64,000 nt of DNA from positions 673-64,672 of IMG/VR virus record IMGVR_UViG_3300046791_000095; one strand, 5' to 3'. Below, piece by piece: positions 2,593 through 61,316 of the stretch. A program made the translations under genes and the position numbers. Source of the stretch: a virus. Taxonomy: Duplodnaviria; Caudoviricetes. Position 1 is the stretch's first letter, and every line of letters begins with the position of its first letter. The notes beneath the pieces were generated by a model, which saw only the letters and a list, made by a program, of their open reading frames with translations, did not search any database and had not been told where the DNA came from.

Positions 2593-3020
2593 GCGAGGAA
2601 CCGATCATCGACCCGAAGGAAGCGAATGGCTGGATCGGGGTGGACTTCGATGCCACCCTCGCCGAGTATCACGGGTGGGACATCTCGAAGGGCGCCCTCG
2701 GACCGGCGATTCCCAGGATGATGGCCCGTGTGCGTGCGTGGCTCAAGGCTGGTCGCGAGGTGCGCATCATGACGGCCCGCACTGGCGAGGAGCAGGAGCT
2801 TCTCATCCAGACGTGGCTCCATGACAACGGGCTGCCCAAGCTCCCGATCACGAATCAGAAGGATCGGATGATGTACCAGCTTTGGGATGACCGCGCGATT
2901 CAGGTCCGCTCGAACACGGGCGAGACTGTGGACGAGGAAGTCATCCGACTGAAGCGGGAACTCAAGCGGGTCTACGACTCGCTGCGTGCGTTCAAGCAGA
3001 CGCTGGAGGAGATCGAATGA
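2589..3020 (+). CDS. HAD-superfamily phosphatase (Pnkp 3'-phosphatase-like)
   Basis: DFDATL motif I, TAR motif II, K...WDDR motifs III/IV. Confidence 0.7.
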   Translation: MSEEPIIDPKEANGWIGVDFDATLAEYHGWDISKGALGPAIPRMMARVRAWLKAGREVRIMTARTGEEQELLIQTWLHDNGLPKLPITNQKDRMMYQLWDDRAIQVRSNTGETVDEEVIRLKRELKRVYDSLRAFKQTLEEIE

Positions 3021-3751
3021 AACTCTACCTCGTAGGCGGGGCGGTTCGTGACTACGCCCTCGGTGTGAAGGGGACGAAGGACTACGACTTCGCTGTCGAG
3101 GCGGATTCGTACAAAGACATGGTTGTTGGCTTGCGCGCTGCTGGTGCAACCATCTGGCAGGAGCGACTTGAGTTCGTGACGGTCCGGGCTCAGTTCCCTG
3201 TGGTGCTCGGCTCTTTCGGCGGGCTGCTCCCGACGGGCAGTCGTGTCGTTGATGCTGACTTCACGCTCTGCCGGGCTGAGACTCAGTATTCGGACCTACG
3301 TCATCCTGACACGGTGACGCCTGCCACTCTCGATGTCGATCTCAGCCGGCGTGACTTCACGATGAATGCGATGGCTGTGGGTGAGAATGGTCAGTGGCAC
3401 GATCCGTACAACGGATGGGATGACGCTGAGGATCATGTCCTCAAGACGGTCGGACATCCTCAAGACCGGTTCACCGAGGACCCACTTCGGATGCTGCGGG
3501 CTCTCCGCTTCGCCATCAAGTACAACCTGCGCTTCAACGCTACTCTCGCGGCTGTGCTGGACGACAGGAGGCTTCTACGCGGGATCGAGACTCTTCCGGC
3601 CGAGCGGGTGCGCGAGGAGTTGAACAAGGCTTTCAGTGCGGACAGCTACCGCACGATGTATTACCTGATGACCCGCTTCCCGGAACTTGGTGCAGCCGTC
3701 GCCACCTATCACCCGAACCTCAAGCTCAAGGTGGTTCAGGAGGGAATGTGA
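3017..3751 (+). CDS. cca: class II tRNA nucleotidyltransferase (CCA-adding / poly(A) polymerase family)
   Basis: LYLVGGAVRD, DYD, RRDFTMNAMA, EDPLRMLRALRF, ERVREE motifs. Confidence 0.9.
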   Translation: MKLYLVGGAVRDYALGVKGTKDYDFAVEADSYKDMVVGLRAAGATIWQERLEFVTVRAQFPVVLGSFGGLLPTGSRVVDADFTLCRAETQYSDLRHPDTVTPATLDVDLSRRDFTMNAMAVGENGQWHDPYNGWDDAEDHVLKTVGHPQDRFTEDPLRMLRALRFAIKYNLRFNATLAAVLDDRRLLRGIETLPAERVREELNKAFSADSYRTMYYLMTRFPELGAAVATYHPNLKLKVVQEGM

Positions 3752-5227: not shown

Positions 5228-6441
5228 AGAAGTCTCATCCACTCCTCGTCGGAATCGAGAACGTCAAACCCTACAAGCTGACCGAGGGCCACGAGATGTA
5301 CAGCGTGCGCCCTCCTGCCATGCAGATCGAGGACTTCCTCCCTGTTGGCGGCGTGATGGGCATGACCTCGTATCCCGGCGTAGGCAAGACCTGGCTCGCT
5401 CTGGAGATCGCCCGGTCCGTAGCATCAGGCACACCGTTCCTCGGCCGATACAAGGCGATGAGGGGCGGTGTTCTTTTCGTTGGTTCCGACTCCTCTCTCT
5501 ACGACTACGCTCGACAGTGGACGCGCCTCACGCGCAACACCGAGGACGCAGTCAACGTGTTCGAGCCGGTTCGCTTCCTCGTGCAGTCCACCTTCATGTT
5601 CGAGGACCGCGACGAGATCAGGAAGCTCATCCGCACGCACCAGAAGTTCGAGTGGGGCGAGACTACCATCGGTCCGAAGGGACCTGAACGCGAGCATGGC
5701 TTCCACACGCTCGTCTTCGACACGGTCTCTCGCCTCACTCGCGCGAATCAGAACGACAACACCGAGATGGAAGAGGTCTTCCGGAACATCCGCATGCTGG
5801 CCGAGGCGACCGACTGTGCCATCGTCCTGCTGCACCACAACTCGAAGAAGAGCGAGTACAACGACGGCTCCGATTGGCGTGGTGCCATGTCGCAGATCGG
5901 CGCCCTCGATTCGTGGGTGCAACTCTCGCCGCACCGGAAGGACAAGCACCTCGTCGGAATCCAGTTCAAGAAGTTCCGTGGCATCACGCCACCCGACTTC
6001 TCTTACCGCATGGCAGTGAGTGATCCGGCGTCCGCGAGTCTCTCCATCACGGATGAGCCCGTGACTACCGCACAGAAGATGCAGCATGACGTGGTCGCAG
6101 ACGCCGTGAAGGAGTTCATCGTACAGCATCCGGGAAGACGGGCGTGCGAGATTCGCGATGCTCTGTGGCCCAAGTTTCAGGTTGGCGTTGCTGAGGTCAA
6201 TGGCACGACGACGGCCTTCCCGGTGATCAAGGATTTCACCACCGCAGTGAACAACCGCCTCGCAGCGATGATGCAGGTACAAGTGATCAAGCGTCGGCAG
6301 AACAATGAGGGCAAGGCGGTCTACACCGTCGTTACTCCACAATCAACCGAGGGAGCCCCGGCTCCTGCTACGGGAGAACAGAGTGAAGTCAGAACATCTC
6401 GGCGTCGTCGTCGTAAGGCTGCAAGTCCCGCGTCTGCATGA
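5224..6441 (+). CDS. RepA-like SF4/AAA replicative helicase
   Basis: Walker A PGVGKT, Walker B LVFDT, LLHH, RGAM..IGALDS, KKFR. Confidence 0.8.
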   Translation: MKKSHPLLVGIENVKPYKLTEGHEMYSVRPPAMQIEDFLPVGGVMGMTSYPGVGKTWLALEIARSVASGTPFLGRYKAMRGGVLFVGSDSSLYDYARQWTRLTRNTEDAVNVFEPVRFLVQSTFMFEDRDEIRKLIRTHQKFEWGETTIGPKGPEREHGFHTLVFDTVSRLTRANQNDNTEMEEVFRNIRMLAEATDCAIVLLHHNSKKSEYNDGSDWRGAMSQIGALDSWVQLSPHRKDKHLVGIQFKKFRGITPPDFSYRMAVSDPASASLSITDEPVTTAQKMQHDVVADAVKEFIVQHPGRRACEIRDALWPKFQVGVAEVNGTTTAFPVIKDFTTAVNNRLAAMMQVQVIKRRQNNEGKAVYTVVTPQSTEGAPAPATGEQSEVRTSRRRRRKAASPASA

Positions 6442-7291
6442 TGGGCATCGGTACCTGCTGAACGCCGTCACGGCGATTCATGAGGATGTCCTTGTTGTCA
6501 TCGGCGAGTCTGAGGCACGCGGAACGATGAAGAACCCGTTGCCCTTCTCTGTCCGTGAAGCTATGGTCAGAGAAGCATACCCGAAGGTGAAAGTCGTGCA
6601 GTTGCGTGACTGCTCCTCAGACGAGAAGTGGTCGTACAATCTCGATACGCGAATTTGGGACGAACGAAGCGGATACGAACTTGGAAAAGGAGCGATGCTG
6701 TACGGTGGCCGTGACAGTTTCCTCAATCATTACCAAGGAGAGTATCCGACGTTTGAACTTCCTCCGGTGCGGCCGATGTCAGGCACAGAAATTCGTGAGG
6801 CTGTTTGCCAGCGGGATAGTGAAGAGTTCCGTGCCGGAATGATCTTCGCAGCGAAGAATCGCTATCCCACATCGTACCAGACGGTGGACGTAGCCATCTT
6901 GAATCAAAGCGAGCAGATTCTCCTCGGAAGAAAGAAGGGTGATGGCGACGCGTGGAGATTCATTGGGGGCTTCGTTAGTCCCAAGGACCCCACGCTTGAA
7001 TACACGGTGATGCGTGAAGTACGAGAAGAGACTGGTCTAGAGGTCGGGTCTCCCCGCTACATCGGTTCTTTCCAGGTGGAGGACTACCGATACCCTTCGG
7101 ACGGTCCAGATAGAATCATGACTGCCCTCTTCACCGTCAAGTACGTATTCGGTTCACCCGAGCCGTCTGACGACATCGACGATTGTTGTTGGTTCTCGTT
7201 ACATGATCTTCCTGACATCGTTCCACAACATCATCCGCTGGTGCATCTACTCCTCGGCTATCGTGCCATGAAAGGACTACCCGATGCTTGA
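6383..7291 (+). CDS. nadM: bifunctional NMN adenylyltransferase / Nudix ADP-ribose pyrophosphatase (NadM-Nudix, NatV-like)
   Basis: RLQ..HDGH, KNPL, SGTEIR, Nudix box GGF...REVREETG; GTG6383 with GGAG RBS. Confidence 0.9.
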   Translation: MKSEHLGVVVVRLQVPRLHDGHRYLLNAVTAIHEDVLVVIGESEARGTMKNPLPFSVREAMVREAYPKVKVVQLRDCSSDEKWSYNLDTRIWDERSGYELGKGAMLYGGRDSFLNHYQGEYPTFELPPVRPMSGTEIREAVCQRDSEEFRAGMIFAAKNRYPTSYQTVDVAILNQSEQILLGRKKGDGDAWRFIGGFVSPKDPTLEYTVMREVREETGLEVGSPRYIGSFQVEDYRYPSDGPDRIMTALFTVKYVFGSPEPSDDIDDCCWFSLHDLPDIVPQHHPLVHLLLGYRAMKGLPDA

Positions 7292-8660
7292 GAACAACAT
7301 CATCCTCGCGACCGACAGCTACAAGGTCACCCACTGGAAGCAGTATCCGAAGGGAACGCAGCGTGTGTTCTCCTTTCTCGAATCTCGGGGTGGCGAGTTC
7401 AAGACCACGACCTTCTTCGGTCTCTCCTACATCATCAAGCGGTTCCTCGCTGGCAAGGTTGTCACTCACGAGAAGATCGCGGAGGCGCGCGAGTTCTTCA
7501 AGCTTCACTTCGGTGACGACACCCTCTTCAATCTGGACGACTGGAACTACATCCTCGCCATGCATGGTGGACAACTCCCGGTCTCCATCCGTGCCATCCC
7601 TGAAGGCACTACCGTTCCCACTGGTAACGTCCTCATGACCATCGAGAACACGGACCCGAACGTGCCGTGGCTCACGAACTACCTAGAAACGATCCTCATG
7701 CAGGTGTGGTACCCGACGACCGTCTGCACCCAGTCGCGTGCGATGAAGCAGGACATCAGTGAGGCAATGAGGTTGTCGGGCGCCGACATGGCTGGTCTCC
7801 CGTTCAAGCTCCACGACTTCGGCTACCGGGGCAGTACTTCGTTCGAGTCGGCCGGCATCGGCGGCTGCGCGCACCTCGTGAACTTCATGGGCACCGACAC
7901 GATGGCTGCCTTGCAGGTCGCTCGAAACTACTACAACGAGCCGATGGCTGGCTTCAGTATCCCCGCTGCCGAGCACAGTACGATGACGGCATGGGGAAAG
8001 ACGAACGAGGCCGAGGCGTACCGGAACATGCTGGAGCAGTTCCCGAAGGGCTTGGTTGCGGTCGTCAGCGATAGCTACGACATCTATCACGCGTGCAGTG
8101 AAATCTGGGGTGACGAGTTGAAGGATCAGGTCCTCAACCGTGACGGTGTCGTCATCATCCGCCCGGACAGTGGTGATCCTGTCAAGGTCATCCTGAGTCT
8201 GCTGAGCATCCTGGGTGACAAGTTCGGGGTCTCGACGACGAGTACGGGCGACAGAGTTCTGAATCCGAAGGTGCGCCTGATTCAGGGCGACGGGATCGAC
8301 CGAGAGATGTTGACTCACATCCTCGATGCAATGCTCGATGAGAAGTGGTCCATCGACAACATCGCGTTCGGTTCTGGTGGTGGCCTACTCCAGAAGGTGA
8401 ACCGCGATACCTGCAAGTTCGCTCTGAAGTGCAGTGCCATCGAAGTCAATGGCAAGTGGCTTGACGTGATGAAGGACCCGATCACGGACAGTGGGAAGCG
8501 GTCGAAGGCGGGCCGGCTGATCCTCGTCAAGGATAAGGGTGGATACCGGACTGTGCAGGAAGGGAGTAGTGGCTCGAACCTTCTCGAAGAGGTCTTCCGT
8601 AACGGTCAGCACATCCTTCCTCCGACGCTGTCGGGGATTCGGGAGCGAGCTTCGCGCTAA
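7284..8660 (+). CDS. nadV: nicotinamide phosphoribosyltransferase (NAMPT)
   Basis: TDSYKVTH, LHDFGYRG, AAEHS, SDSYD, RPDSGDP, QGDG, FGSGGGLLQK. Confidence 0.95.
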   Translation: MLENNIILATDSYKVTHWKQYPKGTQRVFSFLESRGGEFKTTTFFGLSYIIKRFLAGKVVTHEKIAEAREFFKLHFGDDTLFNLDDWNYILAMHGGQLPVSIRAIPEGTTVPTGNVLMTIENTDPNVPWLTNYLETILMQVWYPTTVCTQSRAMKQDISEAMRLSGADMAGLPFKLHDFGYRGSTSFESAGIGGCAHLVNFMGTDTMAALQVARNYYNEPMAGFSIPAAEHSTMTAWGKTNEAEAYRNMLEQFPKGLVAVVSDSYDIYHACSEIWGDELKDQVLNRDGVVIIRPDSGDPVKVILSLLSILGDKFGVSTTSTGDRVLNPKVRLIQGDGIDREMLTHILDAMLDEKWSIDNIAFGSGGGLLQKVNRDTCKFALKCSAIEVNGKWLDVMKDPITDSGKRSKAGRLILVKDKGGYRTVQEGSSGSNLLEEVFRNGQHILPPTLSGIRERASR

Positions 8661-9197: not shown

Positions 9198-9425
9198 ATG
9201 AGCAACTCTCAGCAGTCGTACCAGAGCGGAGGCGTCGGGTTCACCGGCCTTCTCGCCGTTGCGTTCATCGTCCTGAAGCTCATCGGAGTCATTCACTGGT
9301 CGTGGTGGTGGGTCACTGCTCCCCTCTGGGGCGGTCTTGCGATCTTCATCGCGATCATGATCGTCCTGCTTCTCGTCTTGGGCATTGGCGAACTCATTGG
9401 TGGACATCAGCGTCCGCCTCGGTAA
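9198..9425 (+). CDS. small two-TM phage membrane protein
   Basis: GGVGF..LL..FIVLKLIGVIHWSWWWVTAPLW, a widespread phage family pattern. Confidence 0.75.
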   Translation: MSNSQQSYQSGGVGFTGLLAVAFIVLKLIGVIHWSWWWVTAPLWGGLAIFIAIMIVLLLVLGIGELIGGHQRPPR

Positions 9426-9438
9426 GAAAGGAAATTCT

Positions 9439-10728
9439 GTGAGCAACATTCGCTGGTTCACCGACATCAACGAGGTTGAGCCCGAAGCGCGTGCGCAGGT
9501 GGAACGGACGGCGAGCATGCCCTTCGTCAAAGGCGTAGCCGTCATGCCTGATGTTCACTTCGGCAGAGGCTCGACTGTGGGCACCGTTGTGGCTACGAAG
9601 GGTGCAGTCATGCCTGCCTGTGTGGGCGTGGACATCGGCTGTGGGATGATCGCGGTCCGGACGAATCTCAAGCCCGAGGCTGTGCGCCCGCATCTCGTGA
9701 AGATTCGTGAGGGCATCGAACGACGCATCCCGCTCGGGATCGGCCAGCGGGGGATGAACTCGAAGATTCTCCCGACGGCCGAGTCACGCATTGCGATGCT
9801 CGAAGCTGAGGCTGCGCACGCGTGGGCCGATGTGAATCACATGAACGCCCGCGCGAAGGACTGGCGGAGTCAGTTGGGCTCCCTCGGTGGGGGTAATCAC
9901 TTCATCGAGGTGTGCGTGGGACGCTCCTTCGACAACTACGACGCCGATAGTGTTGGATTTCCTTTTGGCCCGGAGGAGGTCTGGGTCATCCTTCACTCTG
10001 GCTCGCGCGGTGTTGGCAACAAGACGGGAACTCACTGGACCCAGGTTGCCAAGAAGCAGGCGGCCCGGTACAAGTACGACACGTACCTGCCTGATGCTGA
10101 TCTCGCGTACCTTGTGCAGGAGAGCGAGGAGTACCATCAGTACATGAAGGAGTTGTACTGGTGTCAGTCCTTCGCGCAACTCAACCGTGACGAGATGATG
10201 GATCGGGTTATCAATGAACTGTCTTACACACTGTGCGGTGGATACGGAACTCCTGCTCTTCCGTTTGACATCGATCTGCGGAAGGACATGGAGTCTGACA
10301 GGCTCATTGAAGTCGAGCGCATCAACTGTCATCATAACTACGTCAGCAAGGAGCATCATGATGGCGACAACGTCCTCATCACCCGGAAGGGCGCAATACT
10401 GGCGTCTGATGGAACGCGCGGGCTCATTCCCGGTTCGATGGGGGCGAGCAGTTTCATCGTTACGGGCCTTGGGCATTCCGGAGCGTACTGTAGCGCACCT
10501 CATGGGGCTGGCCGCAGAATGTCTCGAACGGCAGCACGAAAGCAGTTCACTCTCGAAGGAGTCACGCAAGAGATGGCGTCGCTCGGCATTGAAGCCCGAG
10601 TCCGCGAAGCAATCGTTGACGAAGCTCCGGGCGCGTACAAGAACATCGACATCGTGATGTTCGATGCGCGGGAGCTTGTGCGTCCGACGCACGTCCTGAA
10701 TCAACTCATCAGCGTGAAGGGAGACTGA
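9439..10728 (+). CDS. rtcB: RtcB RNA ligase
   Basis: MPDVHFG, GVDIGCG, LGGGNHF, HSGSRG, HHNY, PGSMG, HGAGR, DEAPGAYK, terminal KG. Confidence 0.95.
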   Translation: MSNIRWFTDINEVEPEARAQVERTASMPFVKGVAVMPDVHFGRGSTVGTVVATKGAVMPACVGVDIGCGMIAVRTNLKPEAVRPHLVKIREGIERRIPLGIGQRGMNSKILPTAESRIAMLEAEAAHAWADVNHMNARAKDWRSQLGSLGGGNHFIEVCVGRSFDNYDADSVGFPFGPEEVWVILHSGSRGVGNKTGTHWTQVAKKQAARYKYDTYLPDADLAYLVQESEEYHQYMKELYWCQSFAQLNRDEMMDRVINELSYTLCGGYGTPALPFDIDLRKDMESDRLIEVERINCHHNYVSKEHHDGDNVLITRKGAILASDGTRGLIPGSMGASSFIVTGLGHSGAYCSAPHGAGRRMSRTAARKQFTLEGVTQEMASLGIEARVREAIVDEAPGAYKNIDIVMFDARELVRPTHVLNQLISVKGD

Positions 10729-10923
10729 GGATGAACTGCCCGGGCGACCGGCACAACTGGCGCAGAATCTTCTGGTGGACATCACGGCTCCTTTCGTGCG
10801 TCGCTTGCGGAAGAATTGCTGTGAAGACGAGTCAGGTCACGTACAGTATGTTCAAGCACGAGGCTGTGCAGATCGGTGGCTACGCACCCGACCACACCTC
10901 TTCTTGGCACAGAGGAGCGTAAG

Positions 10924-11943
10924 ATGTCTTCTTGGACTTCATACCCGAAGGTGTGGTCGATGGGCCACCGGCTCGTGCAGGACCTCCTGCTAGATGACGT
11001 GATCGTCGAGGAGAAGGTAGATGGGAGTCAGTTCTCGTTTGGCCTCATCGATGGAGAACTCAAGATCAAGTCGAAGGGCGCGATCATCTACCCCGATGCT
11101 CCTCCTGCCATGTTTCGGGGCGCAGTGGAAACAGTCCTCTCGATCCAGGACAAGCTCATTCCTGGGTGGACGTATCGCGCTGAAGTACTCAGCCGGCCGA
11201 AGCACAACGTACTGGCCTACGACCGCGTCCCGCAGGGGAACCTCATCCTATTCGACATCGCGGTCGGTCTCGAAGACTACATGCTGCGTAGCATGAAAGT
11301 AGCAGAAGCTCAGGTGCTCGGTCTGGAGATCGTGCCTGTCGTCTACACGGGCAAGGTCACCTCGGCTGAGCAGGTGATCGCGCTCCTTGACCGTACCAGC
11401 ATCCTCGGCGGCCAGAAGATCGAAGGCGTCGTCGTCAAGAACTACAGCCGCTTTGGAATCGACGGCAAGCCGCTCATGGCGAAGTACGTCGCCGAGGCGT
11501 TCAAGGAGGTCCACAAGGGTGAGTGGCGGAAGGAGAACCCGACAAACAACGATGTCGTGACTCTCCTCGTCAACTCGCTCCGCACTCCTGCACGGTGGTC
11601 CAAGGCGGTGCAGCATCTCCGCGAAGCCGGGACGCTCACCGACTCTCCGAAGGACATCGGTCCTCTGCTGCATGAGATGCAGAAGGACGTGGAGGAGGAA
11701 GAGAAGCAGTTGATCATCGAGCGGCTCTATAAGTGGGCGTGGCCCCATATCCGTCGAGGGATCACCCACGGGTTCCCGGAGTGGTACAAGGAGCAGCTTC
11801 TCGTGAAGCAGTTCGAGACGATGCGGGATCAAGGGATTGTCGTGGATGATGCTGTCCGCTCGCTCGCTGACATTCCCCTTGGTGTCCGTGAGCCTTGGTG
11901 TACGTGCCGCGAAGGACACGAGTGTGAAGGACACCGCGCATGA
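10924..11943 (+). CDS. ATP-dependent RNA ligase, Rnl2-like
   Basis: YPK, motif I EEKVDGSQF, FDI, EGVVVK, K.V...FKE. Confidence 0.8.
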   Translation: MSSWTSYPKVWSMGHRLVQDLLLDDVIVEEKVDGSQFSFGLIDGELKIKSKGAIIYPDAPPAMFRGAVETVLSIQDKLIPGWTYRAEVLSRPKHNVLAYDRVPQGNLILFDIAVGLEDYMLRSMKVAEAQVLGLEIVPVVYTGKVTSAEQVIALLDRTSILGGQKIEGVVVKNYSRFGIDGKPLMAKYVAEAFKEVHKGEWRKENPTNNDVVTLLVNSLRTPARWSKAVQHLREAGTLTDSPKDIGPLLHEMQKDVEEEEKQLIIERLYKWAWPHIRRGITHGFPEWYKEQLLVKQFETMRDQGIVVDDAVRSLADIPLGVREPWCTCREGHECEGHRA

Positions 11944-25597: not shown

Positions 25598-25840
25598 ATG
25601 TCCTACGTCTGGATCAAACTCGTGACGGCGTGTGGCTGTTCAAAGGAGTGGTTGAGTCCAGAGAACTGGACCAGATCAAAGTACGTTGTTTCACTCCCGA
25701 CACCTGTCAAAATAAGTGGAGGAGAACCTGATCTAGCGAACACCTTTCCTCGGACTCGTACTTTCAAATTGTACAACGAGTACTGGGATAATGTTCGGAA
25801 GATTCGTGTTGTCGTCTATGAAGAGTCTTTAGGGGAGTAG
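25598..25840 (+). CDS. hypothetical protein
   Basis: Follows exonuclease; 3' end overlaps tRNA by 10 nt. Confidence 0.45.
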   Translation: MSYVWIKLVTACGCSKEWLSPENWTRSKYVVSLPTPVKISGGEPDLANTFPRTRTFKLYNEYWDNVRKIRVVVYEESLGE

Positions 25841-25906
25841 CGCAGAGGCCAGCGTGCCCGTTTTGGAAACGGGCGGTCGTGGGTTCGAATCCCACCTCCC
25901 CTGCCA
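25831..25906 (+). tRNA. tRNA with TGG (Pro) anticodon on a Trp-type body
   Basis: AGGGGAG/CTCCCCT acceptor, CCCGT-TTTGGAA-ACGGG, GTGGG-TTCGAAT-CCCAC, G73, CCA. Confidence 0.9.
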
Positions 25907-25910
25907 AAGT

Positions 25911-26153
25911 GCGAGGGATACCATAGGTGAAAAGGCCGAGCCGGTCAGGGGAAAGTTGTGGTAGCGAGTACCCCCACCTCCCTCGCATTATCAGTGTGTG
26001 CTTTCCAGAAACCACCACGCAGAAGCGTGAGCGAACTGGATTAGGCTCCAGAGGGAGCAGCACACTACAGCGACCCAAGAGTAAACGTGACGGGCTAAAG
26101 CAATCGCGAGGTCGCGGGCGTAACCCGCGCTAAGCCCGCAGACCTATCTTGGG
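25911..26153 (+). ncRNA. three tandem small structured RNAs between tRNAs
   Basis: Closing stems GCGAGGGA/TCCCTCGC, AGTGTG..TGCTTTC/GGGAGCA.CACACT and CCCAAGA/TCTTGGG, each with internal hairpins. Confidence 0.55.
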
Positions 26154-26159
26154 CATCTT

Positions 26160-26242
26160 AGCTCCCTGATGGAATGCAGACATGCCAGCCTTAGAAGCTG
26201 GTGCCTTCGGGCGTGAGGGTTCGAATCCCTCGGGAGCTACCA
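26160..26242 (+). tRNA. tRNA-Leu(TAG)
   Basis: AGCTCCC/GGGAGCT, CCAGC-CTTAGAA-GCTGG, long variable arm, TTCGAAT T-loop, ACCA end. Confidence 0.9.
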
Positions 26243-53586: not shown

Positions 53587-55539
53587 TCAGACAGGGTCTC
53601 GTGGAAGGATGTAGTCGTTATCCAGTCCGTCGCCACGGAGTCCGTCGCCGAAGAAACCCGCAGAGGCTAGCTCGTCACGGTCGGCCATCATCACGAGGAG
53701 TTCCTCGTTGGTGGGCGGCTTGCCGATGCTCTTGAGGTCTTGGTCCCACGGACGGATAGGCACAGTGCCTTCCTGACTCGGGATGCCTGGATTGGTGTCG
53801 GGTGGTCGCCAGAGTTGTGAGGTGAAGCCGTCGGCACCAGCGTCTGCAAGGTCGTCGAACATCGTCGTGTCCACTTTGACGATCTGATTGATCATCTTGC
53901 GGGCAGGGATGGGAAGGACGAAGTGCGGACACTGACGCTGCTTGTACGCGTTGCGCGTCGGATCAAACTCTGGAGGAGGACAGTTGCAGTTGTTCTTGTG
54001 AAGGAGGAGACGAACGTAACCTTCGGACCAGTGGCCGGCTGCGGTACGGATGCGGGCCTTCTTGTCCTTGGTGCGGTTCAGTTGGATGAACTGCTCGTCG
54101 CCGAACTGGAAGCCGGCAGTACGGAGGATGCCGAGGATTCGGTTCTTGTAGGTGCCAGACTTGCCGCCCGGCTCGACCTCGTCGGTGATGGCACGGATGT
54201 AGATACCTCGACGACGGAGGTTTAGGCAGACCTTGATCAGTTCTTTGTTGAAGTCCTCTTCGCGCCATTCGTTCGACGCGCAGAGAAGGTCCGTGTCGAG
54301 GTAGAGAACGCCGTTGTTGCGGGCGTCTTTGAGCCAGACCACGATGGCGGAGTCGTCACCGTGTCCGATGTTCTCCTTGTTCTTGAAGGCCGTGTCGATG
54401 TGAATGGTGGCCCATTCCACTTGTACATCCCACATGAAGTCGTGGTACGAGAGATAGAGCCACGGGATTTGATTTTCGACGAGCGGGGCATGCTCGCTTG
54501 CGCCCGGGTTGTTCTGCTGCTGGCAGGCGAAGTCTTCTGCATCGATCCGCTTGCGCTCCTCGATCATCTTCCGCGTCCAGAGCTTCGGATGCGTTGGTTC
54601 GCCAGTCAGTTCGTCTTCGGTCTGGTAGTAGTAGACGTGCCAGAGACCTTCACCGAACGGGACCTTGTCGAACATATTCATGTGGGGGCAGTCCATGCCC
54701 GACCATGAAGCGACACCTTCCTCGCGGAAGTGGCGACCAGCGATGTCGTCGTCGAGGTAACGGGTGGCCGTGAGGACACGGAGTCCGTTGACGTGGAGCG
54801 AGTTCGCCGAGGCGTTGAAGGCTTCGTGCTGACCACGGAGATAGGCGGTGCGGTCAGCCTTCAGCTTGTTCTTCTCCAGCGGGTCATCCCACCACGACTG
54901 GCGAGGATGGTAGCCGGTGGCTCCGATGCCGGCAGAGGAGGCATCGAAGGAGGGTTCGGAGATGTTGCGGGCACGACGGTAGCCGTGCTTGATGTAGTTT
55001 CGCGTACGCTCGTGCGCACCCGAGACCCAGTCGCCGTAGAGCCAGACGAACCACGAATCAGGATCGTGCTCTTTTCCCCCAGACATTACGGACAACTGTG
55101 ATTTGAGGATGTCGATGGAAAGGTCGTCAGTGGCCGATTGGATCAGCGTCGTCATGTCTGGATCATCAAGATGAGTCCAGAGTGATGCTGCCTTCGTCGA
55201 GGAGACGGTCTTACCGTAGCCACGAGGGAGGATCGAGGCGATGCAGTACTGTCCCGGCATGCCGGAGAGCGCATGCTTCTTCCACGCAAGTAGATGCATC
55301 TGAAGCCACTGCGTGTAGGGAACGTGGATCGGAGCGTAGAGCCACTGAGGTTCTGCTGGATGCGACTTGAGGAAGTACTCTGCTCCCCATGCCTTGTTCA
55401 GGAAGTACCAGAGGGAGTAAGGGTGCGTCCCCTTCTTTACTCCGTCTTCTCGGTGCCAGGAGTTGGGGGCGCAGATGGAGCGCCAAAGGAGCCTTTCCGC
55501 TTCAAGGTTCCAACCAATCGTCTGAGTAGCTTCCGCCAT
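53587..55539 (-). CDS. terL: terminase large subunit
   Basis: PRGYGKT, TGYH...WWDDP, ATRY..DD, F.CQQQN.P, IDTA....GDDSA, DDLADA. Confidence 0.9.
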   Translation of the reverse strand: MAEATQTIGWNLEAERLLWRSICAPNSWHREDGVKKGTHPYSLWYFLNKAWGAEYFLKSHPAEPQWLYAPIHVPYTQWLQMHLLAWKKHALSGMPGQYCIASILPRGYGKTVSSTKAASLWTHLDDPDMTTLIQSATDDLSIDILKSQLSVMSGGKEHDPDSWFVWLYGDWVSGAHERTRNYIKHGYRRARNISEPSFDASSAGIGATGYHPRQSWWDDPLEKNKLKADRTAYLRGQHEAFNASANSLHVNGLRVLTATRYLDDDIAGRHFREEGVASWSGMDCPHMNMFDKVPFGEGLWHVYYYQTEDELTGEPTHPKLWTRKMIEERKRIDAEDFACQQQNNPGASEHAPLVENQIPWLYLSYHDFMWDVQVEWATIHIDTAFKNKENIGHGDDSAIVVWLKDARNNGVLYLDTDLLCASNEWREEDFNKELIKVCLNLRRRGIYIRAITDEVEPGGKSGTYKNRILGILRTAGFQFGDEQFIQLNRTKDKKARIRTAAGHWSEGYVRLLLHKNNCNCPPPEFDPTRNAYKQRQCPHFVLPIPARKMINQIVKVDTTMFDDLADAGADGFTSQLWRPPDTNPGIPSQEGTVPIRPWDQDLKSIGKPPTNEELLVMMADRDELASAGFFGDGLRGDGLDNDYILPRDPV

Positions 55540-57913: not shown

Positions 57914-58538
57914 CGGAGGGCTCCACGGTGAATGCTTCGTTCACAGCAGCGAGGGTGATCGTGGGGCCGCATGCAACCATCATTTCCTTGAGACGCGAAG
58001 TCGCCTCCGCACGGGTCATCGGAACCGATGGGCCGAGGTCCTTCGCCTTCGCCTTCTCCTTGAGCTTCTGCCAGAGCGTCGATGCGCTCATGCGCGTGTC
58101 GGGATGGAGGCGTGGGTCGAAGATGAAGCGGAGACACTGCTTGATGACGCGCTTCTCGATCTCCTCTTCCGTGAGATCGCCCGCGTCGTACATATCGATC
58201 ATGTCCGACATGGCCTTCATGGCTTCATGGTCGAGCATCTTCGATGGCTTGCTCGGATTATCGAGGGCCGGCTCTGCTGATTCGCTAGAGGGCTCAGATA
58301 CCTCCGCAGCGCGTGGAGTCGTTGGACGCGACGGGCGCGTCTTCGGAGCCTTTGCTACGGTCTGAGGCTTGCGCGAGGGCGGGAGCCGGCTCTCGGAAAT
58401 CAGAGCGCGACGTGCGATGGCGATTGTGGCAGTCGAGACTTTTGCCCCGATTGCCTGCTGCTCCTTCGTTTCGTCCGGATGGGCCAGGATGTACTCTGTG
58501 GCCTGCTTGAACTTCAGTTCACGAAGCGTTGTCATCAT
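57786..58538 (-). CDS. HTH protein, candidate terminase small subunit
   Basis: First gene of the late arm; N-terminal HTH-like segment (QQAIGAKVSTATIAIAR). Confidence 0.45.
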   Translation of the reverse strand: MMTTLRELKFKQATEYILAHPDETKEQQAIGAKVSTATIAIARRALISESRLPPSRKPQTVAKAPKTRPSRPTTPRAAEVSEPSSESAEPALDNPSKPSKMLDHEAMKAMSDMIDMYDAGDLTEEEIEKRVIKQCLRFIFDPRLHPDTRMSASTLWQKLKEKAKAKDLGPSVPMTRAEATSRLKEMMVACGPTITLAAVNEAFTVEPSDEGKVSTDAPEAPLSPPGTPQSPGSPPDLRPDGGTAGPQPLG

Positions 58539-58633
58539 ATACGTCCGTATTTTTGGGTGGCCTGGGGGCTGCGCACATTTCGCGCCATCGTTGGGGGGTC
58601 TCCGGGACCCTCCCATGCGAGCAGGCGCCCACG

Positions 58634-59530
58634 TTGGCACGAGTCTTGCTACAGCAAGTAGCGTGCCAGCATGCATGCACCCCGCGCAGGCTCGCGCGCT
58701 CGTTGGCATGGTTCTTGCCATAGCACATATCGTGCCAGCGGGCGACCCAGACCAGCGTAGCATAGATCGTGCCGGGATGCAAGCTGGAACAGTCAAGCGC
58801 GCGCAAAGCTTTTCCCGCCCCGAATTGCGTGTTGTCACACAGAACTGAGGGCGCGGCGAGTCGAATGCGGAACAGGGCGAGCCCACCCACAAGCAAGCCG
58901 AGTGCCAGTCTTCTAAGTTGTAATGTAATAGAACAAATAATTACAAGCATAAGGTGGCACAGTTCCACTGTAGCCCGCCCCATCCGGGGCTACACAGTGA
59001 AAGCCTGTGCAACACCTAAGGCGCATGCAATGACTATGCCAAGAACTCTGGCACGCCGCTTGCTAGTCCGCGAAAACGCTCCAACCCTCTGTCCCCCAAC
59101 GCGTTACACCATTCGTTCGAGAAGGCCCCTAGCGTGCCCGCTGGCCGCGCCAATATGGCCGCGTGCCTCCCCATAGCCGCGCCCACCTGTGCAGTAGCGT
59201 AACCCCAACTCGCACATCACGTTGCGCCGTTTCCCCGACCCATCGAGGGAACAAAAACTCGCCGCGCTCCGTCGATCCTAGGAGCCCGCCCTCGCTGCTC
59301 GCCTGCGCACCCGGGCGCTCCCTCGTTCAGTTTCGCAACAGTGCCCCGAGAGGGCGTGTCCAAATTGACACACTCGCCCCGATTCTGACCTGTGCCACGC
59401 GCCCCTATCTAATGAGTAGAAGTCAAAATCACGTCGTGCAGAAAAGTGTTGCATCACTCGCACTCTGCATGCTACACTGGTCTGAGCAGCACGAGGTCGC
59501 AAGAGGTTACACTGTGGCATCACCCTTGCA
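58634..59530. promoter_or_regulatory. array of nine sigma54 (-24/-12) motifs
   Basis: GG-N10-GC (TGGCA.....TTGC-like) at 58634+, 58653-, 58703+, 58722-, 58759-, 58892-, 59026-, 59048+, 59514+. Confidence 0.75.
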
Positions 59531-59540
59531 CTCTACTTCG

Positions 59541-60046
59541 TCAGTCACACGATCCGAAGCGCCAAGAGCCCGAAGGACCCGCAAGGTCCCGTGGGACGAT
59601 AGAGCGGACGGAACGACAGGAGCGGCCCGGAACGGGCCATAAGAGTAGCCCAAGCCTAACGGAACAGGTGCGCGTCCTGCCTCTTCACCAGTGGCGGCGA
59701 ACCCATCGACCAGCGGCGAAAGCGCCTCCACCCAGTGCAGCGCGAAGCGGTAGTCGGAACGCACGCCCCATCGGCACTCGCACTCGCCACACCTCGATGC
59801 AGCCCCGCAACGGGCCGCCCGGGTGGAAGCGACCGCGAAGGCCACGACGACATGGGAGAGCGAGAAGGCGCAGAGCCTCCACGAGAGGCGGCACACAAGC
59901 GGCAGGGCAAACGCACCTAGAGCGGAATGCGCGCGACCAACAGATCGGCCGAAGCTGGCCGGATGCGCGCACACTGCGATGATGCCGGGATACCGGCGAG
60001 CGGTGAAACGCGACGACCTTAGGAACGAGCCCGAGCCGAATGAGTC
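59541..60046 (+). ncRNA. large (~500 nt) structured non-coding RNA
   Basis: Nested long-range stems, many hairpins, k-turn-like motif, T-poor with purine-rich linkers; bounded by a sigma54 site and a ribozyme cleavage site. Confidence 0.6.
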
Positions 60047-60177
60047 GTGAGATGGTGTAGGTCTCGGCGACGGCTGCATCAAGAACGAGGAGCACTGGGT
60101 TCGAAGCCCGTGCTCGGATGCTAGCCCGAGAGACCTCACCGCCTCTCACCTGACGAGCCCCAGAAGGGCGAAACTCA
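60041..60177 (+). ncRNA. type III hammerhead ribozyme
   Basis: TGAGTC^ / stem I GTGAGA..TCTCAC / CTGACGA / stem II GCCC-CAGAA-GGGC / GAAACTCA. Confidence 0.88.
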
Positions 60178-60191
60178 ACCTAGGAGGCGTT

Positions 60192-60530
60192 GTGGCCCTC
60201 ACCATCGATTGTCGCACCAGCCCGGACCAGTCCGAGGTCGCCATCTACACGCGGCAGCAGTGGCTTCAGATCGTCGCCTTCATGATGATGTTCGTGGGCA
60301 TCTCGGACATCACCGAAGCGAACCTCGACGAGACTTACCGTCGCATGCACCTCTGGGAGAGCACTGGCGGCCCGCTCGCGGGCGACATCCACGGTCCGGT
60401 CACCGAGGCCACGCTCCGCTACTTCATCGGCGCCCACGCGAACGTCAGCACGATGACCAAGCGTCAGTTCACCGCCCGCTTCAAGTGCTACGCTGCGGAC
60501 GTGGCGACGCGCAAAGCGAAGGCGGCCTGA
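60192..60530 (+). CDS. early hypothetical protein
   Basis: AGGAGG RBS directly after the hammerhead. Confidence 0.7.
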
Positions 60531-60531
60531 C

Positions 60532-60699
60532 ATGCCCGACATCGACCTCATCATCCGCTACGAGCAGGGCGAACTGGACCACGACGAGACCGTCGCCCTC
60601 TTCCAATCGCTCGTGAGCAGCGGCCTCGCGTGGACGCTCCAAGGTCACTACGGCCGCATGGCCATGCACCTCATCGAGGAAGGACTGGTGACCCGGTGA
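60532..60699 (+). CDS. 55-aa conserved phage early protein (not in ORF track)
   Basis: YEQGELD....LFQ.LV.SG.AW.LQGHYGR, a common phage family pattern. Confidence 0.75.
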
Positions 60700-60848: not shown

Positions 60849-61065
60849 CCTCGCAGTCATCAACTCCATCGGTCGCACGCGTCGCACGCGTCGGCCTCGC
60901 ACCCCGAAGCGCGCCCGGTACTACTGGCGCGTCGTCTTCGGCCCGAACTGGTGCCGCTACGGTCGCACCTTCGCGAAGTCTGACACGGTGCGAACCGTTC
61001 TCGACACCCTCGAATCCAAGTATCCTCACGCCCGGCGCGTGGAAGTCACCACGCACCCCTTCTAG
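60841..61065 (+). CDS. small Arg-rich protein
   Basis: GGAGG RBS before GTG60841. Confidence 0.55.
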   Translation: MDSLAVINSIGRTRRTRRPRTPKRARYYWRVVFGPNWCRYGRTFAKSDTVRTVLDTLESKYPHARRVEVTTHPF

Positions 61066-61076
61066 GAGGCACCACC

Positions 61077-61316
61077 ATGCATCCCGTTCGCGTGTGCGTC
61101 GAGACCACTGACGCGAGCATCGAGTACCTCGTCCACGTCCGCAACCACTCGCGCCACGCCCTGACCGGCGCGGTGCGCAGCGGCTGGAGACGGTACCCTG
61201 CGGCCCGCTCGGTCATCGCCGAGTTCACCGAGCACGACTGCGCGACCTGTGCGCGCACTCACACCGTCGCCCCGGTGCGTCGCGTCTTCAAGCGCACCAG
61301 CAAGCGGGTGGCCTGA
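61077..61316 (+). CDS. hypothetical protein
   Basis: AGGAGG RBS. Confidence 0.6.
   Translation: MHPVRVCVETTDASIEYLVHVRNHSRHALTGAVRSGWRRYPAARSVIAEFTEHDCATCARTHTVAPVRRVFKRTSKRVA

What the first reader, a model, noticed from the sequence alone, without database searches (positions are those of the whole stretch)
59514..60190. Sigma54 promoter, ~500-nt structured RNA and hammerhead ribozyme in series ahead of the early operon
Seen: GTGGCATCACCCTTGCA (59514-59530) predicts a transcription start near 59541. The next ~500 nt have no credible ORF, are T-poor, and fold extensively: AGGTGCG..GTCCTGCC (59666-59681) pairs with GGCAGGGC..CGCACCT (59901-59918); TCCACCC (59727) with GGGTGGA (59821); TGCGCGC with GCGCGCA; hairpins GGACC/GGTCC, GGCCCG/CGGGCC, GCCTC/GAGGC. 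A complete hammerhead follows and should cut after GUC60046. Established: hammerheads leave a 2',3'-cyclic phosphate and a 5'-OH. Inference: the first transcript is self-processed into a discrete large ncRNA of a class I do not recognise, plus a 5'-OH early mRNA that may resist 5'-end-dependent decay. This is the best candidate for an undescribed system.
Basis: partly seen in the sequence, partly recalled or inferred. Interest (0 to 1): 0.9.

Follow-up and report, generated by a model that had tools for sequence, protein, structure and literature searches.

The report
Ribozyme-cut leader before phage early genes

Summary
The sequence features are real. The window is a complete 64.7-kb phage. 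Its 1.65-kb divergent control region (58,539-60,191) holds all six exact sigma-54 -24/-12 matches in the window (0.07 expected). The site at 59,515-59,530 is followed by an ORF-free stretch that is the most T-poor 500 nt of the window (8.2% T, starting at 59,539). Next comes a complete type III hammerhead: it cuts after C60046, has a 103-nt stem I, and ends 4 nt before the RBS of the first rightward gene. Related phages keep a hammerhead at this position with compensatory changes in stems I and III, so the ribozyme is credible. Ribozymes placed like this are already known in phages.

The claim of a large structured ncRNA of a new class is only weakly supported. The fold is no more stable than shuffles (z -0.87). 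No Rfam family matches. The long-range pairings are not conserved. What is conserved is the U depletion, a 5' hairpin module, and a leader-specific GAGCCC-tetraloop-GGGAC hairpin unit.

Best reading: a ribozyme-trimmed, termination- and nuclease-resistant leader with probable protein-binding hairpins. A trans-acting RNA is not excluded. No RNA data exist.

The parts
58635..58737 (.). Two tandem 69-bp repeats. Each carries a face-to-face (palindromic) pair of sigma-54-type sites: 58,635-50 (+) with 58,653-68 (-), and 58,704-19 (+) with 58,722-37 (-). The second pair has 1 mismatch in each site.
58892..58907 (-). Leftward sigma-54-type site facing the structural (late) operon, whose first start codon is at 58,538.
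59026..59064 (.). Back-to-back divergent sigma-54-type sites: 59,026-41 (-) and 59,049-64 (+, the distal rightward promoter).
59515..59530 (+). Proximal rightward sigma-54-type promoter TGGCATCACCCTTGCA. The predicted start is about 59,540-59,542.
   Evidence: The same element sits directly before the leader in relatives.
59541..60046 (+). Non-coding leader with 8.5% U. Its predicted 3' end is C60046 carrying a 2',3'-cyclic phosphate.
59557..59606 (+). Conserved 5' module. It is an extended GAGCCC...GGGAC unit: CCCG 59,569-72 pairs with UGGG 59,592-95, capped by GGACC-CGCAA-GGUCC at 59,575-89.
   Evidence: 47 nt are 91% identical to L262 and 39 nt are 87% identical to L189. All three sequences keep these pairs.
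60041..60177 (+). Type III hammerhead ribozyme. It cleaves between C60046 and G60047. Stem I, 60,047-60,149, is a long bulged helix.
60090..60115 (+). Apical hairpin of stem I with a T-loop-like GGGUUCGAAGCCC. ARAGORN and Rfam do not call it a tRNA.
60182..60194 (+). RBS AGGAGG (60,182-87) and the GTG start (60,192) of the first rightward gene. That gene is 112 aa and has no family match passing a curated cut-off.

Best explanation
Shown by sequence:
- A host-type sigma-54 promoter at 59,515-59,530 lies in a divergent control region packed with such sites.
- It precedes a 506-nt untranslated, strongly U-depleted leader at the head of the phage's rightward operon. That operon carries DUF932, primase/helicase, NAMPT, RtcB, an RNA ligase, DNA polymerase and tRNAs.
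- A genuine cis-acting type III hammerhead closes the leader.

Inferred from hammerhead chemistry:
- The ribozyme cuts after C60046. The 5-bp stem III then lets the leader fall away with a 2',3'-cyclic phosphate.
- The operon mRNA begins with a 5'-OH at G60047, buried in the stable 103-nt stem I hairpin, 145 nt before the GTG start.

Inferred function:
- Cleavage uncouples the mRNA from its long leader without host RNases. It gives the mRNA a 5' end that is a poor entry point for 5'-monophosphate-dependent decay.
- The leader itself is not one large folded RNA. It is a composition-constrained spacer: few U, and G about equal to C. That leaves few A/U-rich nuclease sites, no U-tract terminators and poor Rho loading.
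- The spacer carries a handful of conserved hairpins. The GAGCCC-tetraloop-GGGAC unit and the 5' module most likely serve as protein-binding sites on the nascent RNA.
For: Promoter:
- 6 exact sites are found against 0.07 expected.
- The GGCAY-N5-NTGCA element with a free spacer is conserved directly upstream of the leader in ours, L153, L262, L189, the G003 clade and the unrelated L235.

Hammerhead:
- The full core, the A15.1-U16.1 pair and a GUC site are present. The descriptor gives 1 hit against 0.03 per shuffle, and the MFE equals the hammerhead fold at z -2.82.
- L153/L154 were found through terminase alone. They carry a compact type III hammerhead at the same place.
- Across 5 hammerheads (ours, L153, L189, L262, L235), stems I and III change by compensatory substitutions while the core stays fixed. 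Each ends 0-21 nt before an SD-like motif.
- The L153 copy aligns to RF00008 over model positions 4-51 at 25.7 bits, E 0.0012 in that 201-nt search.

Leader:
- No periodicity and no coding-type conservation.
- U is 5.7-11.8% in 5 leaders against 20.8% T genome-wide.
- The U-poor stretch starts at the predicted +1 here. It also starts there in the 7 related loci that hold the leader promoter: L153, L283, L285, L286, L287, L289 and, less sharply, L288.
- All 7 GAGCCC-N3-5-GGGAC hits in the relatives' records lie in leaders, with 0 control hits.
- The unit's loops swap among UUCG, UACG, GAGA and other loops.
- One C-G to G-C compensatory swap is seen between two 97%-identical haplotypes.
- Hairpins are kept at matching positions in L262 and L189 with two compensatory changes (by inspection).

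Precedent: hammerheads that flank prophage genes, and one at the mapped 5' end of the major early transcript of halovirus HF2 (PMC3088659, passages).
Against: - No RNA evidence of any kind. No listed sequencing run is RNA, so transcription from this promoter, cleavage and fragment stability are all unobserved.
- The phage has no Sigma54_activat (PF00158) protein and the host is unknown. The activator for these promoters is therefore unexplained.
- The G003 clade keeps the promoter and a ~700-nt U-poor leader but has no hammerhead motif and no Rfam ribozyme hit. Cleavage is dispensable in close relatives.
- L262 has only 3 stem III pairs before a mismatch.
- No hammerhead here or in relatives reaches an Rfam gathering score.
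- L189, L262 and L235 were found with a pattern that fixed the core and stem II. Conservation of those parts in them is by construction.
- The stabilisation and 'spacer' roles are inference only.
- Predicted RBS accessibility does not change consistently on cleavage. It rises from 0.25 to 0.45 here, but changes by 0.00 to -0.06 in 4 relatives.
Confidence: 0.55

Rival explanations
1. The released 506-nt fragment is a discrete, stable, trans-acting phage ncRNA of a new family. It would act, for example, as a decoy or sponge for a host RNA-binding protein or nuclease. The hammerhead exists to define its 3' end.
For: - The ends are sharply defined. U depletion begins at the predicted +1 (59,539) and ends at the cleavage site.
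- Family-specific hairpin units occur only in leaders.
- Loops vary among UUCG, UACG, GAGA and other sequences, and one compensatory swap is seen.
Against: - Folding is not beyond shuffles: sense z values are -1.33, -1.63, 0.0, -1.55 and -1.55 for the five leaders.
- Length and sequence diverge fast (281-699 nt), with only about 50 nt alignable across clades.
- The G003 clade has the leader without a ribozyme, so it would stay attached to the mRNA there.
- GGA motifs are not enriched, so it is not a CsrA-type sponge.
- There are no expression data.
Confidence: 0.2
2. The leader is a processive antitermination or RNAP-modifying RNA of the lambda nut boxB or HK022 put kind. The GAGCCC-loop-GGGAC hairpins would load a phage or host factor onto the elongating polymerase. 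The hammerhead then discards the leader.
For: - Short G+C hairpins with tetraloops are repeated 1-2 times per leader in the relatives, at the head of a >25-kb operon.
- They are restricted to the leader strand.
- The resemblance to boxB is recalled from memory, not tested.
Against: - No N-, Q- or other antiterminator-like protein was identified. All 10 small early ORFs scanned had no PHROG or Pfam match above cut-off.
- No boxA-like element was sought.
- No terminators were predicted downstream to be overcome in the 58,000-60,600 scan. The single terminator-like hit is at 58,034-58,051, upstream of the leader.
Confidence: 0.12
3. The region works mainly as DNA: a promoter/enhancer cluster or a replication origin. 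The hammerhead would be a decaying relic of hammerhead-rich ancestry with no present role.
For: - Eight sigma-54-type sites on both strands, tandem 69-bp repeats and an AT-rich island at 58,908-58,950 lie in the same intergenic region.
- The cumulative GC skew peaks at 58-59 kb.
- The ribozyme was lost in the G003 clade.
- The GAGCCC...GGG units resemble hammerhead stem II.
Against: - The core is intact, and stems I and III covary across clades. That is not expected of a relic.
- The DNA sites lie upstream of 59,531, whereas the U-depleted stretch is strand-specific and begins at the predicted +1.
- Loop swaps between stable tetraloops point to RNA-level selection.
Confidence: 0.08

Closest known systems
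Hammerhead ribozymes of phages and prophages, including the HF2 halovirus hammerhead at the 5' end of its major early transcript (Perreault et al. 2011, PMC3088659; passages read)
   Same: - Consensus core and three helices.
- Placement in an intergenic or leader position just upstream of the first ORF of a polycistronic viral transcript.
- The proposed role of trimming long phage transcripts.
   Different: - Stem I here carries a ~90-nt insertion, which is why Rfam models miss it.
- It is preceded by a sigma-54-type promoter and a 500-nt U-depleted leader with family-specific hairpins.
- Only one ribozyme is present, not a flanking pair.
T7 early-leader processing at the RNase III site R0.3
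   Same: A non-coding leader several hundred nt long, between the early promoters and the first gene, is cut off. This leaves a structured end on the early mRNA. It is the nearest functional analogue.
   Different: The cut is made by a host enzyme, RNase III, at a double-stranded site. It leaves a 5'-phosphate and 3'-OH, not a 5'-OH and 2',3'-cyclic phosphate. The promoters are sigma-70 type.
Sigma-54-like promoter in Pseudomonas phage YuA (statement in PMC10914365 citing Ceyssens 2008; one passage read)
   Same: A tailed phage with no RNAP of its own that uses a sigma-54-type promoter.
   Different: - YuA is reported with a single sigma-54-like promoter region.
- Here eight sites cluster on both strands, some as face-to-face palindromes.
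- No sequence relationship was found: terL has no tblastn hit in 50,697 phage records.
Large structured phage- or bacteria-associated ncRNAs in Rfam (GOLLD, ROOL, OLE, HEARO, raiA and others)
   Same: Several hundred nt, non-coding, phage-borne, with A-rich unpaired positions.
   Different: - No covariance-model match even at E<=10.
- No excess thermodynamic stability.
- No conserved global architecture.
lambda nut boxB and HK022 put leader RNAs (recalled from memory)
   Same: Short conserved hairpins in the untranslated leader of an early operon.
   Different: The sequence motif differs. No partner protein was identified, and no function was tested.

Membership tests
Hammerhead ribozyme, type III (Rfam clan CL00010 / RF00008) | Conserved core C3-U4-G5-A6-N7-G8-A9 and G12-A13-A14 | tested here: met
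   CUGACGA lies at 60,150-56 and GAA at 60,170-72.
Hammerhead ribozyme, type III (Rfam clan CL00010 / RF00008) | A15.1-U16.1 pair and an N-U-H cleavage triplet | tested here: met
   A60173 pairs with U60045. The triplet is GUC at 60,044-46.
Hammerhead ribozyme, type III (Rfam clan CL00010 / RF00008) | Three helices closing on the core with standard pairs at 1.1-2.1 and 10.1-11.1; stem III open (type III) | tested here: met
   - Stems I, II and III have 6, 4 and 5 consecutive pairs.
- G60047 pairs with C60149, and G60157 with C60169.
- The MFE reproduces the fold.
Hammerhead ribozyme, type III (Rfam clan CL00010 / RF00008) | Helices supported by covariation in homologues | tested here: met
   - In 5 sequences, stem III positions 15.3-15.5 and stem I positions 1.2-1.6 change on both sides and stay paired.
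- Stem II is invariant. In 3 of the 5 sequences that is by ascertainment.
Hammerhead ribozyme, type III (Rfam clan CL00010 / RF00008) | Score at or above the Rfam gathering threshold | tested here: not met
   - The window has no hit at gathering score and only a partial HH9 match of 15.5 bits against 52.
- The compact homologue in L153 scores 25.7 bits against 48.5 for RF00008.
- No hits at gathering score in L153, L189, L235 or L262.
- The 103-nt stem I explains the miss here.
Hammerhead ribozyme, type III (Rfam clan CL00010 / RF00008) | Self-cleavage activity | not testable with these tools
   No RNA run holds the sequence.
Sigma-54 (RpoN)-dependent promoter | -24 GG and -12 GC elements at fixed spacing (YTGGCACGR-N3-TTGCW) | tested here: met
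   TGGCATCACCCTTGCA is an exact match, one of 6 against 0.07 expected. The element is conserved before the relatives' leaders with a variable spacer.
Sigma-54 (RpoN)-dependent promoter | An enhancer-binding AAA+ activator available to open the complex | tested here: not met
   The phage record has no PF00158 match at E<=1, while the control rang in 14 of 14 genomes. A host activator remains possible, but the host is unknown.
Sigma-54 (RpoN)-dependent promoter | Host encodes rpoN; transcription starts about 12 nt downstream of the GC element | not testable with these tools
   No host or prophage relative was found, and there are no RNA data.
Large structured ncRNA class (GOLLD, ROOL, OLE, RNase P, group I/II introns and other Rfam families) | Covariance-model match | tested here: not met
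   No hits for 59,350-60,350 at E<=10 apart from the partial HH9 match and a chance-level malK-III hit. The relatives' loci give nothing at E<=1.
Large structured ncRNA class (generic criteria) | Fold more stable than dinucleotide shuffles, and a conserved global structure with covariation | tested here: not met
   - z is -0.87. The five leaders give z from -1.63 to 0.0.
- The RNAalifold covariation term is +5.49 on 3 sequences.
- Only local hairpins are supported.
- With so few homologues this is weak evidence either way.
CsrB/RsmZ-type protein-sponge RNA | Many GGA motifs, beyond what composition gives | tested here: not met
   GGA occurs 14 times against 14.0 +/- 2.9 expected here, and is not enriched in any of the 5 leaders.

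The most novel reading that the evidence does not exclude
The U-depleted leader is a new family of phage regulatory RNA whose release by the hammerhead matters because of its end chemistry.
- The cleaved fragment carries a 2',3'-cyclic phosphate. In Salmonella, RNA ends of this kind are proposed to switch on the sigma-54 activator RtcR through its CARF domain (abstracts of PMC7790460 and PMC10159003, seen in the listing).
- A phage with no activator of its own, eight sigma-54 sites and its own RtcB ligase could use ribozyme-made cyclic-phosphate RNA to trigger a host RtcR-like activator.
- That would drive its own sigma-54 promoters in a positive feedback loop. Phage RtcB could reset or limit the signal.
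Probability: 0.06. Interest if true: 0.85.

Novelty: new variant of a known kind. Interest (0 to 1): 0.42.

Why it matters
- If the ribozyme is active, this is a clean natural case of a phage replacing host RNase processing of its early leader with a self-cleaving RNA. The promoter type is one rarely documented in phages, which makes ribozyme function in bacterial mRNA maturation directly testable.
- The extreme, sharply bounded U depletion (8% against 21%) is conserved across clades whose leader sequences no longer align. It begins at the predicted +1 in every relative that retains the promoter. This is an unusual, unexplained constraint on an untranslated RNA.
- The dense sigma-54 site cluster, including face-to-face palindromes found in at least 120 diverse viral contigs, points to a phage transcription strategy. 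I found no description of it in one literature search (listing only).
- No part of this bears on health or safety. The value lies in RNA biology and phage gene regulation.

Tried and rejected
- RNA evidence: no RNA holder was listed for 59,400-60,600. Four DNA runs laid as contigs gave only fragmentary cover and a few variants, none in a predicted stem.
- Nucleotide relatives: no blastn match in 50,697 phage records. The leader-motif pattern found only 2 contigs in the viral collection, the same 2 contigs in the metagenome collection, and none in genome contigs.
- Host: terL gave no prophage relative in genome contigs and no tblastn hit in phage records.
- tRNA link: a T-loop-plus-hammerhead pattern returned 17 viral contigs with true tRNAs followed by hammerheads. 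None is related to this locus. ARAGORN and Rfam call no tRNA in stem I.
- DUF932-anchored relatives L002 and L003 have neither hammerhead, sigma-54 sites nor similarity in the upstream region.
- CsrA-sponge idea: GGA is not enriched.
- 'Cleavage unmasks the RBS': predicted unpaired probability rises here (0.25 to 0.45) but not in L153, L189, L262 or L235.
- RtcB as a marker of ribozyme-bearing phages: RtcB-like genes occur in 3 of 3 near-complete relatives, including the hammerhead-less G003 and G001.
- General sigma-54/hammerhead linkage: only 3 of 127 hammerhead cores in the sample have a sigma-54 motif within 1.5 kb upstream on the same strand.
- An alternative type I reading from the HH9 alignment, cutting at GUU just before the start codon, was rejected because no stem III can form (by inspection).
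- Earlier-findings look-up was not open.
- Supplements of PMC3088659 (figures S1-S7, hammerhead lists) could not be seen. They may already list relatives of this type.
Full report
**Context**

The window is bases 673-64,672 of a 64,672-bp IMG/VR virus record with a 127-bp terminal repeat, rated complete.
- Structural genes lie on the minus strand: large terminase 53,587-55,539, portal, and major head protein. Their first start codon is at 58,538.
- The plus strand from 60,192, wrapping through the record ends to about 26 kb, carries a replication and RNA-repair module. It holds DUF932, primase/helicase-like, NAMPT, RtcB (E 5.8e-129), a second RNA ligase, a PolyA_pol/CCA-type nucleotidyltransferase, DNA polymerase and two tRNAs.
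- The finding therefore sits in the 1,653-bp divergent control region, 58,539-60,191. This region shows no codon periodicity.
- The phage has no nucleotide match and no terminase tblastn match among 50,697 deposited phage records.
- Its DNA is held by soil and rhizosphere metagenome runs (11 runs with at least half of the sampled words). Four laid runs, including one wetland and one freshwater run, gave short near-identical contig pieces. The host is unknown.

**The promoter**

GTGGCATCACCCTTGCA is at the stated place.
- TGGCAY-N5-TTGCW occurs six times in the window, all between 58,635 and 59,530. Shuffles give 0.07 on average, and 0 of 100 reach six. Two more sites there have one mismatch.
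- The sites are arranged as follows:
  - two face-to-face palindromic pairs inside a 69-bp tandem repeat (58,612-58,739);
  - a leftward site at 58,892-907;
  - a back-to-back divergent pair at 59,026-41 and 59,049-64;
  - the proximal rightward site at 59,515-30.
- The same GGCAY-N5-NTGCA element, with a freely varying spacer, stands directly before the leader in every relative that retains it.
- The motif-level claim is solid. What is missing is an activator. The phage has no Sigma54_activat domain, while the control search rang in 14 of 14 genomes.
- A sigma-54-like promoter has been reported for Pseudomonas phage YuA (one passage of PMC10914365).

**The hammerhead**

- All core nucleotides are present, together with the A15.1-U16.1 pair, a GUC triplet and three helices. 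Stem III is UGAGU 60,041-45 with ACUCA 60,173-77. Stem I is 60,047-60,149. Stem II is GCCC/GGGC with a CAGAA loop.
- A purpose-written type III descriptor hits once in 64 kb on both strands. It averages 0.03 hits per dinucleotide shuffle, and 3 of 100 shuffles have any hit.
- The MFE of 60,030-60,190 is exactly this fold, with z -2.82.
- Rfam misses it at gathering score and aligns only the core to HH9 (15.5 bits, E 1.2). The 103-nt stem I explains the miss.
- Comparative support:
  - L153/L154 were retrieved through terminase alone (76% identity). They have a compact type III hammerhead in the same place, aligned by RF00008 at 25.7 bits, E 0.0012, below the cut-off of 48.5.
  - L262 is syntenic with 68% terL identity. 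L189 also carries one, with a long stem I.
  - The unrelated L235 has a sigma-54 site, a leader of about 100 nt, a type III hammerhead and an RBS in series.
  - Across the five, stems I and III covary while the core is fixed. Stem III is 5 bp followed by a mismatch (3 pairs, a mismatch, then 1 pair in L262). Each ends 0-21 nt before an SD-like motif.
  - Caveat: L189, L262 and L235 were found with a pattern that fixed the core and stem II.
- The arrangement is not rare. Of 127 cores with this stem II in a capped IMG/VR sample, 72 classify as type I, 41 as type III, 4 as either and 10 as neither. Of the 45 type III-compatible ones, 25 are followed by an SD-like motif and start codon.
- Perreault et al. 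2011 already describe prophage hammerheads flanking genes, and a halovirus HF2 hammerhead at the mapped 5' end of the major early transcript (PMC3088659, passages).

**The ~500-nt stretch**

It is non-coding.
- There is no periodicity.
- No Pfam family matches the three long spurious ORFs.
- tblastx similarity to relatives is confined to one nucleotide-conserved block, scoring in all six frames. Downstream genes behave as coding controls.

Its most striking property is composition.
- U is 8.5% against 20.8% T genome-wide.
- The T-poorest 500-nt window of the whole window starts at 59,539, the predicted +1, and so ends just before the cleavage site.
- The same holds in relatives. In L153, L286 (=L262), L287 (=G003), L289, L283 and L285, the U-poorest 300 nt begin 1-43 nt after the first base of the promoter motif. 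Five leaders range from 5.7 to 11.8% U.

Sequence conservation is limited.
- About 50 nt near the 5' end (59,557-59,606) are 91% identical to L262 and 87% identical to L189. Little else aligns.
- Leader length varies from 281 to 699 nt.

One recurrent element stands out, the hairpin unit GAGCCC-N3-5-GGGAC.
- In the relatives' records, 7 of 7 matches are on the leader strand inside leaders, with 0 hits to the reversed control.
- In 2.63 Mb of fetched loci, 21 of 23 hits belong to this phage group. The 21 include the same contigs fetched more than once. The control gave 2 hits.
- In this window the unit is present once, in an extended form, at 59,566-59,597.
- Its loops include UUCG, UACG, GAGA and others.
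- Two G003-clade haplotypes that are 97% identical differ by a UUCG-to-UACG loop change and by a C-G to G-C compensatory swap in a neighbouring hairpin.
- L262 and L189 keep a hairpin with two compensatory changes (by inspection).
- These observations point to selection on RNA hairpins.

**Against a large folded ncRNA**

- The MFE is not more stable than shuffles. One search gave z -0.87, with 18 of 100 shuffles folding as well. My 60-shuffle runs gave -1.33, -1.63, 0.0, -1.55 and -1.55 for the five leaders.
- RNAalifold on three sequences has a positive, penalising covariation term.
- No Rfam family matches here or in relatives.
- The G003 clade (terL 72%) keeps the promoter and a ~700-nt U-poor leader with the unit. 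It has no hammerhead motif and no ribozyme hit. Release of the leader is therefore not essential to whatever the leader does.

**Mechanism**

Shown:
- the promoter motif;
- the non-coding, U-depleted segment;
- an intact, covarying hammerhead;
- its position next to the RBS.

Inferred from established hammerhead chemistry:
- cleavage after C60046 yields a leader ending in a 2',3'-cyclic phosphate;
- the mRNA starts with a 5'-OH at G60047 inside a stable hairpin;
- the 5-bp stem III lets the products separate.

Inferred function:
- Maturation of the early mRNA becomes independent of host RNases. This is analogous to T7 leader removal at R0.3, which I recall from memory.
- The resulting 5' end is poor for 5'-monophosphate-dependent decay.
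- The leader acts as a termination- and nuclease-resistant untranslated spacer carrying a few protein-binding hairpins.

Ideas tested and dropped:
- a CsrA-type sponge;
- cleavage-dependent RBS unmasking;
- RtcB as a correlate of the ribozyme;
- a general sigma-54/hammerhead link (3 of 127 cores).

No RNA data exist to test expression or cleavage.

**Verdict**

This is a ribozyme-processed leader of a known general kind, not demonstrably a new class of large structured RNA.
- New elements are the sharply bounded U depletion, the leader-specific hairpin unit, and the sigma-54-rich control region.
- I rate it a new variant of a known kind, of moderate interest.

Noticed in passing
In the fetched loci there are 133 sites and 110 distinct 34-mers, with contig G+C from 30 to 68%. 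The free positions follow the fuller sigma-54 consensus (G then R after TGGCAY). The element appears to be widespread in phages. One literature search (listing only) showed no description of it.
   Followed up: partly
loci L004-L020: In 17 viral contigs a true tRNA gene is followed within about 25-55 nt by a hammerhead core. These are unrelated to this phage.
   Followed up: partly
window 3,017-3,751; 6,305-8,660; 9,385-11,943: An RNA-repair and NAD toolkit in the rightward operon: a PolyA_pol/CCA-type nucleotidyltransferase, a cytidyltransferase-Nudix fusion, NAMPT, RtcB and a second RNA ligase, plus tRNA-Pro and tRNA-Leu at 25,831-26,242. RtcB-like genes are present in 3 of 3 near-complete relatives. 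The G006 copy is read through one in-frame TGA.
   Followed up: partly
window 60,090-60,115: The apical hairpin of hammerhead stem I carries a T-loop-like GGGUUCGAAGCCC. It is not present in the stem I insertions of L189 or L262, and it is not called as a tRNA.
   Followed up: partly
window 59,318-59,336 vs 60,168-60,186: A 19-nt stretch upstream of the proximal promoter is 79% complementary to the hammerhead GAAAC/stem III 3' strand plus the RBS. Transcripts from the distal promoter (59,049) could therefore mask both. This may be chance: it is one of 33 inverted repeats in 2.1 kb.
   Followed up: no
window 58,908-58,950: An AT-rich island with a short inverted repeat (ttgtaat...attacaa) lies between leftward and rightward sigma-54 sites. 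It could be an IHF-type bending site or part of an origin.
   Followed up: no
window 53,587-55,539: The large terminase matches PHROG 38 by HMM (E 6e-30). It has no tblastn hit at E<=1e-5 in 50,697 deposited phage genomes, so the lineage has no cultured relative in that collection.
   Followed up: partly
L149 4,091-4,810 (G003) and L287, L289: A sister clade keeps the sigma-54-type promoter and a ~700-nt U-poor leader with the GAGCCC-UNCG-GGGAC unit, but has no hammerhead. The antisense strand of that leader folds unusually stably (z -3.62). This is unexplained.
   Followed up: no
window 60,192-60,530: The first gene after the ribozyme (112 aa) has no PHROG match and only a sub-threshold Pfam hit. 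It has no counterpart in the relatives. The first shared gene is at about 61,065-61,301. The leader and ribozyme are therefore more conserved than the gene they precede.
   Followed up: partly
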